DNA of 64,000 nucleotides from Escherichia coli (GTDB taxonomy: Bacteria; Pseudomonadota; Gammaproteobacteria; Enterobacterales; Enterobacteriaceae). Under the pieces are notes generated by a model. It saw nothing but the letters and a program-made list of their open reading frames with translations, had not been told where the DNA came from and made no database searches. The stretch lies in NCBI RefSeq assembly GCF_044324785.1, contig NZ_CP172127.1; one strand, given 5' to 3'. This document shows positions 15,119-40,519 of the stretch, one piece after another (within the stretch, counting starts at the first letter, position 1; every line of letters begins with the position of its first letter). The translations under genes were made by a program, and so were the position numbers.

Positions 15119-15218
15119 GCCTGATGCGCTACGCTTATCAGGCCTACGAGACTCCTGCAATATATTGAATTTGCATGATTTTGTAGGCCGGATCAGACGT
15201 TAACGCCGCATCCGGCAA
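15119..15218. repeat. REP/BIME element (two inverted REP-like units) downstream of gyrB
   Basis: GCCTGATGCGCTACGCTTATCAGGCCTAC and GTAGGCCGGATCAGACGTTAACGCCGCATCCGGCA match the REP palindromic-unit pattern. Confidence 0.7.
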
Positions 15219-25271: not shown

Positions 25272-25372
25272 ACATCGTAGCCGATGAGGACGCGCCTGAT
25301 GGGTGTTCTGGCTACCTGACCTGTCCATTGTGGAAGGTCTTACATTCTCGCTGATTTCAGGAGCTATTGATT

Positions 25373-25786
25373 ATGCGTAACTTTGATTTATCCCCGCTTT
25401 ACCGTTCTGCTATTGGATTTGACCGTTTGTTTAACCACTTAGAAAACAACCAGAGCCAGAGTAATGGCGGCTACCCTCCGTATAACGTTGAACTGGTAGA
25501 CGAAAACCATTACCGCATTGCTATCGCTGTGGCTGGTTTTGCTGAGAGCGAACTGGAAATTACCGCCCAGGATAATCTGCTGGTGGTGAAAGGTGCTCAC
25601 GCCGACGAACAAAAAGAGCGCACCTATCTGTACCAGGGCATCGCTGAACGCAACTTTGAACGCAAATTCCAGTTAGCTGAGAACATTCATGTTCGTGGCG
25701 CTAACCTGGTGAATGGTCTGCTGTATATCGATCTCGAACGCGTGATTCCGGAAGCGAAAAAACCGCGCCGTATCGAAATCAACTAA
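25373..25786 (+). CDS. ibpA: Small heat-shock protein IbpA, 137 aa
   Basis: [21 protein letters not shown]; alpha-crystallin domain. Confidence 0.95.
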
Positions 25787-39382: not shown

Positions 39383-39555
39383 TATCACGGATGCTTTTAT
39401 AAAAATAATTAGAATAAGTCACTACGCATTCCCATAAATGCGGGAGAGGAATCTATCACATTAATAAATGTTAGCCAGATATACGCCAGGAATGGGGAAT
39501 TGTTTAGCGGCAGAATATGTAAACAAAAGCGGCAATAAATGTTGCCGGAAGGGAT

Positions 39556-39592
39556 GGTAGGGCGGATAAGATGCGTCAGCACCGCATCCGAC
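39556..39592. repeat. REP-like palindromic element
   Basis: GTAGGGCGGATAAGATGCGTCAGCACCGCATCCGACA resembles the REP consensus. Confidence 0.55.
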
Positions 39593-39661
39593 ACCAACCC
39601 GCACGCTAAATATAAAAGGGGAGCGGGTAACCGCTCCCCTTTGGTGCGACTTGAATCTGAA

Positions 39662-39751
39662 TTACTTCAGGTATTTCAGAACAGCATCAAGCAGTTGCAG
39701 TGCTGCAACAATGAGTTTGAGGATAAGAATGGCGATATCCACCAGGCTCAT
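39662..39751 (-). CDS. tisB: Type I toxin TisB (29 aa, MSLVDIAILILKLIVAALQLLDAVLKYLK)
   Basis: Not in the ORF track (too short); reverse-complement translation matches TisB as I recall it, with a single N-terminal difference from K-12. Confidence 0.85.
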   Translation of the reverse strand: MSLVDIAILILKLIVAALQLLDAVLKYLK

Positions 39752-39985
39752 ACGCGTCTCCTGTGGTTCAGGAGCACTGCCAGCTGACGTACCTTTCCGC
39801 TGCCTGTTGCCAGCTGTTGTGCACGCGGTATCTCAAGGAGAAACGTTGTGCTTGTTGACATAACACAGTGTGCTCACGCGGGGTTAAGGCGCTGACGGCA
39901 CCACCCGTTTCAGCCAGGACTTAGTGCGCCGGGTAACGATGCGGCCCCCACATAACACATTGCGTACAGTGATATTATAGAAGTT

Positions 39986-40005
39986 TACTGTATAAATAAA
40001 CAGTA
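39986..40005. promoter_or_regulatory. LexA box (TACTGTATAAATAAACAGTA) of the SOS-regulated tisAB / istR-2 promoter region
   Basis: Near-perfect CTGT-N8-ACAG palindrome with flanking TA/TA. Confidence 0.8.
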
Positions 40006-40109
40006 ATATTTGGACAAAACGCAAACTATGATCGATACTCAACTATGCACTAAATACGTCAAAATTCGTGCCGAAATTGCGCGTTCTGCGCGGAACACGT
40101 ATACTTTCA

Positions 40110-40187
40110 GTGTTGACATAATACAGTGTGCTTTGCGGTTACCAGCCGCAGGCGACTGACGAAACCTCGCTCCGGCGGGGTTTTTTG
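40110..40187 (+). ncRNA. istR: IstR-1 antitoxin sRNA (approximate bounds), ending in an intrinsic terminator CGCTCCGGCGGGGTTTTTTGTT
   Basis: 21-nt stretch GTTGACATAATACAGTGTGCT (40112-40132) is a near-copy of 39854-39874 (20 of 21), so a + strand transcript would be antisense to the tisAB mRNA; terminator hairpin and T-run at about 40160-40187. Confidence 0.6.
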
Positions 40188-40315
40188 TTACCTGCAATTC
40201 AGTACAAAACGTGATCAACCCCTCAATTTTCCCTTGCTGAAAAATTTTCCATTGTCTCCCCTGTAAAGCTGTGCTTGTATAAATATTGTTAAACACAAAA
40301 CCAACAAGGTCCCCA

Positions 40316-40414
40316 ATGACTACTTCCATGTTCAACGCAAAACTACTACCAACTGCGCCATCCGCCGCAGTGGTCGTCGTGCGTGTGGTGGTGGTCGTCG
40401 GCAATGCGCCGTAG
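40316..40414 (+). CDS. ivbL: ilvB operon leader peptide IvbL (32 aa, MTTSMFNAKLLPTAPSAAVVVVRVVVVVGNAP)
   Basis: Val/Leu-rich leader read directly from the sequence; followed by the attenuator. Confidence 0.9.
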   Translation: MTTSMFNAKLLPTAPSAAVVVVRVVVVVGNAP

Positions 40415-40438
40415 GGACTGGAACAACACACGATTCCA

Positions 40439-40475
40439 AAACCCCGCCGGCGCAAACCGGGCGGGGTTTTTCGTT
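40439..40475 (+). terminator. ilvB attenuator terminator (ACCCCGCC...GGCGGGGTTTTT)
   Basis: GC-rich hairpin plus T-run between ivbL and ilvB. Confidence 0.8.
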
Positions 40476-40519
40476 TAAGCACCTCCCGGAAAGTCGGCCC
40501 AGAAGAAAAGGACTGGAGC

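What the first reader, a model, noticed from the sequence alone, without database searches (positions are those of the whole stretch)
39662..40187. tisB / istR-1 type I toxin-antitoxin locus with LexA box, including a 21-nt near-duplicate
The 29-aa TisB toxin ORF (minus strand, absent from the ORF track), a near-consensus LexA box (39986-40005) and a + strand sRNA-like unit ending in a strong terminator (about 40110-40187) are all present. The sequence 40112-40132 nearly duplicates 39854-39874, which is exactly what is needed for IstR-1 to base-pair with the tisAB mRNA. TisB differs from the K-12 sequence I recall at residue 2 (S versus N).
Basis: partly seen in the sequence, partly recalled or inferred. 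Interest (0 to 1): 0.4.

Follow-up and report, generated by a model that had tools for sequence, protein, structure and literature searches.

The report
Known E. coli tisB/istR-1 toxin-antitoxin locus

Summary
These are the 29-aa TisB ORF (39662-39751, minus strand), a LexA box (39986-40005), the IstR sRNA with its terminator (IstR-1 about 40112-40186, IstR-2 40047-40186), and a 21/22-nt direct repeat (39853-39874 vs 40111-40132) with one mismatch.

The region is colinear with E. coli K-12 istR-tisAB, lies in the same emrD–ysdE / ivbL–ilvBN neighbourhood, and differs at about 7 of 651 positions. Rfam istR scores 150 bits (threshold 45). NCBIfam TisB scores 69.9 bits (cut-off 53).

The single repeat mismatch gives a G·U wobble and is also present in K-12. 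In 14 Enterobacteriaceae loci from at least six genera, 98% of duplex positions stay paired and one pair shows compensatory change. The target, the IstR-1 5' end and the LexA box are better conserved than the tisB coding sequence.

The N2S difference from K-12 is real. It is the majority E. coli allele (3289 of 4358 genomes here) and was published as such in 2024, with toxicity confirmed.

The mechanism is the established one: LexA-repressed toxin mRNA, 5' processing, ribosome standby, IstR-1 competition and RNase III cleavage.

Verdict: already known, low interest.

The parts
39615..39642 (-). tisAB intrinsic terminator: perfect 12-bp stem, 4-nt loop, then a U tract on the minus strand.
   Evidence: I1. 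It aligns to the K-12 terminator; the stem is identical and only the loop differs.
39662..39751 (-). tisB CDS: 29-aa hydrophobic inner-membrane toxin, N2S allele.
   Evidence: ORF; NCBIfam equivalog, 69.9 bits against a cut-off of 53; one SNP relative to K-12, at 39747.
39757..39774 (-). tisB Shine-Dalgarno AGGAGA (39757-39762) sequestered in a local hairpin with the anti-SD CUCCUG.
   Evidence: Sequence. The predicted folds of the +1, +42 and +106 forms all pair the SD. The RBS AGGAGA is reported 100% conserved in E. coli (PMC11264685).
39748..39861 (-). tisA: 37-aa upstream ORF whose stop overlaps the tisB start (ATGA). Probably not a real coding gene.
   Evidence: There is no Pfam or NCBIfam match. 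An ATG-initiated ORF is missing in most other genera, which carry a 34-nt indel here. The literature reports no evidence of translation.
39854..39874 (-). IstR-1 target and ribosome standby site in the tisAB 5' UTR, about 95-110 nt upstream of the tisB SD.
   Evidence: It is the most conserved block of the locus across genera: 96%.
39875..39926 (-). 5' structured element of the processed (+42) tisB mRNA, upstream of the standby site.
   Evidence: 92% conserved across genera. Assignment is by homology to K-12 and PMC6690012. The +42 coordinate is inferred from the -10 position, ±2 nt.
39927..39967 (-). First ~41 nt of the primary tisAB transcript (inferred +1 at about 39967). In the predicted fold it pairs with and sequesters part of the standby region.
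   Evidence: The role of the +1 to +41 segment is from PMC6690012.
39974..39979 (-). tisAB promoter -10 hexamer, TATAAT.
   Evidence: Sequence. It is the same hexamer annotated in PMC11264685 Table 1. It is 92% conserved across genera.
39986..40005 (.). LexA (SOS) box TACTGTATAAATAAACAGTA. It overlaps the -35/spacer region of the tisAB promoter and lies 5 nt upstream of the istR-2 -35.
   Evidence: CTG-N10-CAG is invariant in the 13 aligned loci (one has CTGG in place of CTGT).
40011..40039 (+). istR-2 promoter: TGGACA, 17-nt spacer, GATACT.
   Evidence: The hexamers match PMC11264685 Table 1.
40047..40186 (+). IstR-2: the 140-nt SOS-induced long form, which shares its 3' part with IstR-1.
   Evidence: Mapped from the K-12 RefSeq ncRNA annotation. 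Rfam istR covers 40057-40186.
40077..40105 (+). istR-1 constitutive sigma-70 promoter: TTGCGC, 17-nt spacer, TATACT.
   Evidence: Sequence. The hexamers match PMC11264685 Table 1. It is identical to K-12.
40112..40186 (+). IstR-1 antitoxin sRNA, about 75 nt (RefSeq annotates 73 nt from 40114). It has a single-stranded 5' tail, an internal hairpin at 40124-40158 and a terminator at 40161-40186.
40112..40132 (+). IstR-1 5' antisense segment that pairs with 39874-39854 of the tisAB mRNA.

Best explanation
This is the intact chromosomal istR-tisAB type I toxin-antitoxin locus of E. coli, and it works as established for K-12.

The steps below come from the literature on K-12 and are inferred here from near-identity of sequence:
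- In unstressed cells LexA binds the box at 39986-40005 and represses the tisAB promoter and the divergent istR-2 promoter.
- IstR-1 is made constitutively from its own promoter.
- DNA damage removes LexA, and the primary tisAB transcript is made. It is translationally inert, because its first ~41 nt sequester the standby region and the tisB SD sits in a hairpin.
- 5' processing to the +42 form exposes a single-stranded standby site (39874-39854) next to a 5' structure. A 30S subunit with protein S1 loads there and slides about 100 nt to the tisB RBS.
- IstR-1 pairs through its free 5' end with exactly this site (21 bp), blocks standby binding and triggers RNase III cleavage to the inert +106 form.
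- When tisB mRNA exceeds IstR-1, the 29-aa TisB peptide inserts into the inner membrane, dissipates the proton motive force, lowers ATP and promotes dormant, drug-tolerant persisters.

Shown here directly: all sequence elements are present, intact and in the right order, and the pairing is retained across genera.
For: - Identity and synteny. The alignment to K-12 is about 99% identical and colinear, and every functional element is identical except TisB N2S. The neighbourhood is the same, emrD-ysdE on one side and ivbL-ilvBN on the other.
- Family models. Rfam istR scores 150 bits against a gathering score of 45. NCBIfam TisB equivalogs score above their cut-offs.
- LexA box. It is unique in the window, with 0 of 100 shuffles matching.
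- Pairing. The 21-bp duplex is -33.5 kcal/mol, against -14.0 ± 2.1 for shuffles. In 14 enterobacterial loci 98% of duplex cells pair, and one pair covaries C-G to U-A.
- Conservation across genera. Target 96%, IstR-1 5' end 92%, 5' leader structure 92%, LexA box 90%, tisB CDS 86%.
- Predicted folds. The SD is sequestered in all three mRNA forms, and part of the standby site is sequestered by the 5' end of the +1 form.
- Promoters. The hexamers equal those annotated in PMC11264685.
- Mechanism from the literature. PMC4147584, PMC6690012 and PMC11264685. The last also shows that the N2S variant is toxic.
Against: Nothing substantive.
- No expression data exist for this particular strain.
- The transcript ends (+1, +42, +106) are inferred from promoter position and homology, not measured.
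- The thermodynamic fold of the +42 form shows the standby site only partly open (mean P(unpaired) 0.47), which is less clear-cut than the published structure probing.
- Covariation support is thin. Sixteen of 21 pairs never vary, so conservation of the duplex could partly reflect other constraints on each copy, such as S1/30S binding.
Confidence: 0.97

Rival explanations
1. The locus is a decayed or silent remnant. The sequence resembles istR-tisAB, but one or more of the differences from K-12 inactivate it: N2S in TisB, A at 39950 in the leader, A at 40028 in the istR-2 promoter spacer, or the terminator loop.
For: There are about 7 differences from K-12 in 651 nt. The 39950 change turns a predicted G-C pair of the inhibitory 5' helix into G·U.
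Against: - None of the differences touches a promoter hexamer, the LexA box, the SD, the start or stop codons, the duplex or a terminator stem.
- The same alleles occur in many E. coli genomes. The exact 57-mer around N2S is in 3289 of 4358 genomes. The A at 39950 and the A at 40028 are shared with strain 1190. The GTAA loop is shared with strains N3 and 042.
- N2S is experimentally toxic, more so than the K-12 form at low induction (PMC11264685).
Confidence: 0.02
2. The 21-nt repeat is a relic of a local duplication with no pairing function, and IstR acts on other targets or not at all.
For: - The repeat is direct, as a duplication would leave it.
- A weaker third copy exists at 39950-39962.
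- Most duplex positions are invariant, so covariation evidence is limited.
Against: - The repeat is kept at the same spacing (247-258 nt) in at least six genera, while the sequence between and around it diverges to 29-78% identity.
- The one variable internal pair changes on both sides in 6 of 14 loci.
- Published genetics and biochemistry in K-12, which has identical sequence, show IstR-1 binding, standby competition and RNase III cleavage at this site.
Confidence: 0.01

Closest known systems
E. coli K-12 MG1655 istR-tisAB locus (b4616 istR, b4618 tisB; NC_000913.3 3853118-3853642)
   Same: The order and orientation of all elements and the flanking genes are the same. IstR-1, IstR-2, the LexA box, the three promoters, the standby/target site (including the G·U wobble), the SD hairpin and 28 of 29 TisB residues are identical.
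   Different: - TisB N2S (39747).
- A for G at 39950 in the leader (about +18).
- A for G at 40028 in the istR-2 promoter spacer.
- C for T at 40191, after the IstR terminator.
- Terminator loop GTAA where K-12 has TTTC.
All are polymorphisms seen in other E. coli genomes.
Consensus non-K-12 E. coli tis/istR locus with TisB-N2S (Fozo laboratory survey, PMC11264685)
   Same: It carries the dominant S2 allele and the same promoter hexamers, LexA box, RBS and standby site reported as 94% to over 99% conserved in that survey. The best complete-genome matches are 99.5% identical.
   Different: Nothing of note. The three differences from the best hits lie in or beside the tisB terminator loop.
Other SOS-regulated, divergently encoded type I systems of E. 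coli (dinQ/agrB, zorO/orzO, shoB/ohsC)
   Same: The architecture is the same: a small hydrophobic toxin with a long, processed 5' UTR, and a divergent sRNA pairing far upstream of the RBS (PMC4147584).
   Different: The sequences and families are different. This locus is tisB/istR by both family models and by synteny, and it is not one of these systems.

Membership tests
tisB/istR-1 type I toxin-antitoxin system | 29-aa TisB toxin ORF that matches the curated TisB family model | tested here: met
   NF011340 scores 69.9 bits (cut-off 53) and TIGR04459 scores 61.5 bits (cut-off 38), both full length 1-29. It is 28/29 identical to K-12.
tisB/istR-1 type I toxin-antitoxin system | IstR sRNA gene matching the Rfam covariance model RF01400 above its gathering score | tested here: met
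   150.1 bits against 45, model positions 1-130 of 130, at 40057-40186 on the plus strand. It is the only copy in the window.
tisB/istR-1 type I toxin-antitoxin system | Divergent toxin and antitoxin genes sharing an intergenic region with a LexA box at the tisAB promoter | tested here: met
   tisAB is on the minus strand and istR on the plus strand. The LexA box at 39986-40005 lies 6 nt upstream of the tisAB -10. It is identical to K-12 and conserved across genera.
tisB/istR-1 type I toxin-antitoxin system | About 21 nt of complementarity between the IstR-1 5' end and the tisAB 5' UTR, about 100 nt upstream of the tisB RBS | tested here: met
   The duplex has 20 Watson-Crick pairs and one G·U, at -33.5 kcal/mol. 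The target at 39854-39874 lies 92-117 nt upstream of the SD at 39757-39762. Across 14 loci 98% of cells are paired.
tisB/istR-1 type I toxin-antitoxin system | Constitutive sigma-70 promoter for istR-1 and a separate upstream promoter for istR-2 | tested here: met
   TTGCGC-17-TATACT at 40077-40105 and TGGACA-17-GATACT at 40011-40039. They equal the annotated K-12 hexamers. Promoter activity itself was not tested.
tisB/istR-1 type I toxin-antitoxin system | Chromosomal position between emrD/ysdE and ivbL-ilvBN, as for the E. coli orthologue | tested here: met
   Annotated neighbours in strain 1190 and K-12 align to the window. ivbL is recognised by NCBIfam.
tisB/istR-1 type I toxin-antitoxin system | SOS induction of tisAB, 5' processing to +42, IstR-1-dependent RNase III cleavage to +106, and TisB toxicity or membrane depolarisation | not testable with these tools
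   These are known for K-12 and for the N2S allele from the literature. They are inferred here from sequence identity.

The most novel reading that the evidence does not exclude
The most novel reading that is not excluded has two parts. First, the Escherichia-specific U at IstR-1 position 11 (40122) turns a G-C pair found in all other genera into G·U, 2 nt from the inferred RNase III cleavage site. Second, IstR-1's 5' end has a weaker complementary site at the extreme 5' end of the primary tisAB transcript (39950-39967; -19.2 kcal/mol, better than all 500 shuffles). Together these could tune IstR-1 repression in Escherichia in a way not yet described. The second site is more simply explained as a by-product of the near-palindromic ACACAGTGT core. 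The literature also states that the unprocessed +1 mRNA does not interact with IstR-1.
Probability: 0.05. Interest if true: 0.2.

Novelty: already known. Interest (0 to 1): 0.05.

Why it matters
It matters only as a correct annotation. RefSeq-style CDS tracks in many E. coli genomes list tisB but omit the IstR sRNAs. This locus is the model system for ribosome standby and for SOS-induced persister formation. Confirming that it is intact here, with the dominant N2S toxin allele, says this strain has the standard TisB-dependent route to ciprofloxacin tolerance. It adds no new biology.

Tried and rejected
1. Is the window from a divergent Escherichia? The best 20-kb match was only 97.2-97.5%. A binned comparison showed normal 98-99% identity. 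The low figure comes from a variable segment at about 42600-45600. Rejected.

2. Is the TA locus unusually conserved relative to its flanks within E. coli? It is not. It shows 6-10 differences in 575 nt, similar to neighbouring bins.

3. Is the extended IstR-1/tisAB duplex beyond 21 nt real? It scores -78 kcal/mol in duplexfold and rests on a 12/14 similarity of 40169-40182 to 39872-39885. It requires melting both IstR-1 hairpins, including the terminator, and duplexfold ignores intramolecular structure. Treated as an artefact.

4. Is the third partial repeat at 39950-39962 a second IstR-1 site? The energy is better than shuffles. However, the region is only moderately conserved (78%), and the literature says the +1 RNA does not bind IstR-1. 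Not adopted.

5. Is tisA a real gene? It has no family match, and the ORF is not conserved outside E. coli. Rejected as a conserved coding gene.

6. Three pattern hits in Agathobacter and Meiothermus have no repeat and no TisB-like ORF. They are chance matches.

7. The first Python duplex script timed out and was re-run in reduced form.

Full report
**Observation**

Reading 39400-40500 on both strands shows a 29-aa ORF at 39662-39751 on the minus strand, MSLVDIAILILKLIVAALQLLDAVLKYLK. A 37-aa ORF (39748-39861, minus) precedes it, and its stop overlaps the start of the 29-aa ORF (ATGA). The sequence TACTGTATAAATAAACAGTA lies at 39986-40005. It is the only site in the 64-kb window within three mismatches of the palindromic LexA consensus, and none of 100 shuffles produced any match. 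The core CTGT-N8-ACAG occurs only twice in the window.

The repeat finder reports a 22-nt direct repeat, 39853-39874 vs 40111-40132, with one mismatch. About 1.5e-6 such repeats are expected by chance in this 901-nt region. A GC-rich hairpin followed by a T run ends at about 40186 on the plus strand.

**Identity**

- Rfam's istR model (RF01400) matches 40057-40186 on the plus strand over its full length, at 150.1 bits against a gathering score of 45. It is the only istR copy in the window.
- The 29-aa ORF matches both NCBIfam TisB equivalog models above their curated cut-offs.
- A megablast of 39600-40250 finds the segment in 4360 of 5426 complete E. coli genomes, always chromosomal. The best identity is 99.5%, and tisB is annotated under the match.
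- The annotated neighbours are emrD and ysdE on one side and ivbL-ilvB-ilvN on the other, in strain 1190 and in K-12 MG1655.
- The direct alignment to K-12 is colinear.
- Identical to K-12 are the IstR-1 and IstR-2 sequences, the LexA box, the promoter hexamers, the target repeat including its single mismatch, the Shine-Dalgarno region and 28 of 29 TisB codons.
- Mapping the K-12 RefSeq features gives IstR-2 at 40047-40186 and IstR-1 at 40114-40186. A 75-nt IstR-1, 7 nt downstream of the TATACT -10, would start at 40112.

**Differences from K-12**

- 39747 (AAC to AGC, giving N2S).
- 39950 (A for G, about +18 of the tisAB leader).
- 40028 (A for G, in the istR-2 promoter spacer).
- 40191 (after the IstR terminator).
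- The tisB terminator loop.

None touches a known functional element. The exact 57-mer centred on the N2S SNP is present in 3289 of 4358 E. coli genomes that carry the locus. S is therefore the majority allele and K-12's N the minority. This is published: a survey of more than 2000 E. coli genomes reported serine at position 2 in 85% of loci. It showed TisB-N2S to be toxic, more so than the K-12 form at low induction, with no difference in ciprofloxacin persistence (PMC11264685).

**The pairing**

tisAB is transcribed leftward and istR rightward, so the direct DNA repeat makes the two RNAs complementary. The IstR-1 5' end GUUGACAUAAUACAGUGUGCU pairs with AGCACACUGUGUUAUGUCAAC of the mRNA. The duplex has 21 bp (20 Watson-Crick pairs and one G·U) at -33.5 kcal/mol. 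Shuffled 21-mers against the whole mRNA give -14.0 ± 2.1 kcal/mol, with a minimum of -19.9. The C/T mismatch of the repeat (39864 vs 40122) produces the G·U wobble.

IstR-1 alone folds to -32.5 kcal/mol (z = -4.05). Its first 12 nt are unpaired, followed by an internal hairpin and the terminator.

**Related loci**

One pattern scan of 100,044 species-representative genomes used the less variable IstR-1 positions. It returned 14 Enterobacteriaceae loci and three chance hits. The 14 loci were:
- Escherichia;
- seven Citrobacter;
- Salmonella arizonae and S. diarizonae;
- Pseudenterobacter, Siccibacter and Franconibacter;
- two unnamed lineages.

In every enterobacterial locus with enough upstream sequence, the 21-mer recurs 247-258 nt upstream with 0-2 mismatches. 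In most of these loci a simple motif search also found a TisB-like 29-aa ORF on the opposite strand. In two loci (UBA3516 and Citrobacter 18056) it was recovered only by the broader search on the alignment, and the S. arizonae locus lacks the sequence that would hold it.

I counted the intermolecular helix on mRNA-linker-IstR chimeras:
- 98% of 294 cells form standard pairs, against 15-49% when the register is slid.
- 16 of 21 pairs never vary.
- One pair changes on both sides: C-G in six loci, U-A in six, with two unpaired intermediates.
- The G·U at 39864/40122 is seen only in the two Escherichia sequences; all others have G-C.

Covariation evidence is therefore modest, but conservation is striking. 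In a 13-locus alignment, mean identity to the window is:

| Block | Identity |
|---|---|
| IstR-1 target / standby site | 96% |
| IstR-1 5' end | 92% |
| Leader between +42 and the target | 92% |
| LexA box | 90% |
| tisB CDS | 86% |
| IstR-2-specific part | 65% |
| 34-nt segment inside tisA (deleted in eight loci) | 29% |

An ATG-initiated tisA ORF is absent from most other genera, and tisA has no family match. This agrees with the published view that it is not translated.

**Mechanism**

The mechanism is taken from the literature on the identical K-12 sequence. It is inferred here, not measured.
- LexA represses tisAB, and istR-2 is transcribed only during the SOS response. IstR-1 is constitutive (PMC4147584; PMC11264685).
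- The primary +1 mRNA is untranslatable.
- Removal of 41 nt gives the +42 mRNA. Its single-stranded standby site, together with a 5' structure, binds 30S/S1. The ribosome then reaches the structured tisB RBS about 100 nt downstream.
- IstR-1 pairs across the standby site, and RNase III cleaves the duplex to the inert +106 form (PMC6690012).
- TisB depolarises the inner membrane and promotes persisters.

Placing +1 at about 39967, 7 nt from the TATAAT at 39979-39974, puts +106 at 39862, inside the duplex. That is consistent with this scheme. Folding the three forms from the window sequence shows the SD paired to an anti-SD in all of them. It also shows the first ~20 nt of the +1 form pairing with the 5' half of the standby region. 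The +42 form is only partly open in the prediction (mean P(unpaired) 0.47), which is a limit of thermodynamic folding.

**Verdict**

The finding is correct in observation and in interpretation, and it describes a textbook locus. Novelty: already known. Interest: low.

Minor side observations are listed separately:
- a terminator-loop flip;
- the ysdE start codon;
- an accessory segment between ilvN and uhpA;
- the IvbL L6F change;
- a weak second IstR-1-complementary site at the mRNA 5' end.

Noticed in passing
window 39615-39642: The 4-nt loop of the tisB terminator hairpin is GTAA here, as in E. coli N3 and 042. In strain 1190 it is TTAC, the exact reverse complement, and in K-12 it is TTTC. 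The 12-bp stem is identical in all. This looks like a hairpin-loop inversion ('flip') polymorphism segregating in E. coli.
   Followed up: partly
window 39464-39538 (+): The small protein gene ysdE starts with ATG in K-12 but has ATA at that position here, as in strains 1190 and 18KM2445, where it is still annotated as YsdE. The window also has an extra G-to-A change one base upstream. A 30-aa ORF in another frame (39468-39560) overlaps it.
   Followed up: partly
window about 42600-45600: A segment between ilvN and uhpA does not align to K-12. It is only 76-95% identical to the best-matching E. coli strain (18KM2445), which annotates two hypothetical proteins there. It is a variable accessory island, and it explains the low 97% identity of the 20-kb comparison.
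   Followed up: no
window 40316-40414 (+): The ilvBN leader peptide IvbL is intact (NCBIfam, 80 bits) and carries L6F relative to K-12: MTTSMFNAK… against MTTSML… as recalled for K-12.
   Followed up: no
window 39950-39967 (-): The extreme 5' end of the inferred primary tisAB transcript contains a third, partial copy of the target motif (ACATAACACATTG). It could pair with the IstR-1 5' end at -19.2 kcal/mol, better than all 500 shuffles. This is probably a by-product of the near-palindromic ACACAGTGT core. The literature says the +1 RNA does not bind IstR-1.
   Followed up: partly
E. coli genome collection (not the window): About 20% of complete E. coli genomes (1066 of 5426) have no megablast match to the tis/istR locus, and a few have up to 4 places. 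Copy-number variation and a pathotype link are discussed in PMC11264685.
   Followed up: no
window 39817-39851 and loci L009, L011, L012, L014, L016-L019: A 34-nt segment inside the tisA ORF is present in Escherichia, two Citrobacter and S. diarizonae. It is absent from eight other enterobacterial loci, which removes or reframes tisA while leaving the flanking RNA elements conserved.
   Followed up: yes
window 9583-9663 (-), 15140-15182 (-), 25307-25379 (+): Three other Rfam matches above gathering score occur in the window: AsdA (antisense RNA of dnaA mRNA), ES036/CssrF sRNA and a ROSE_2 RNA thermometer.
   Followed up: no
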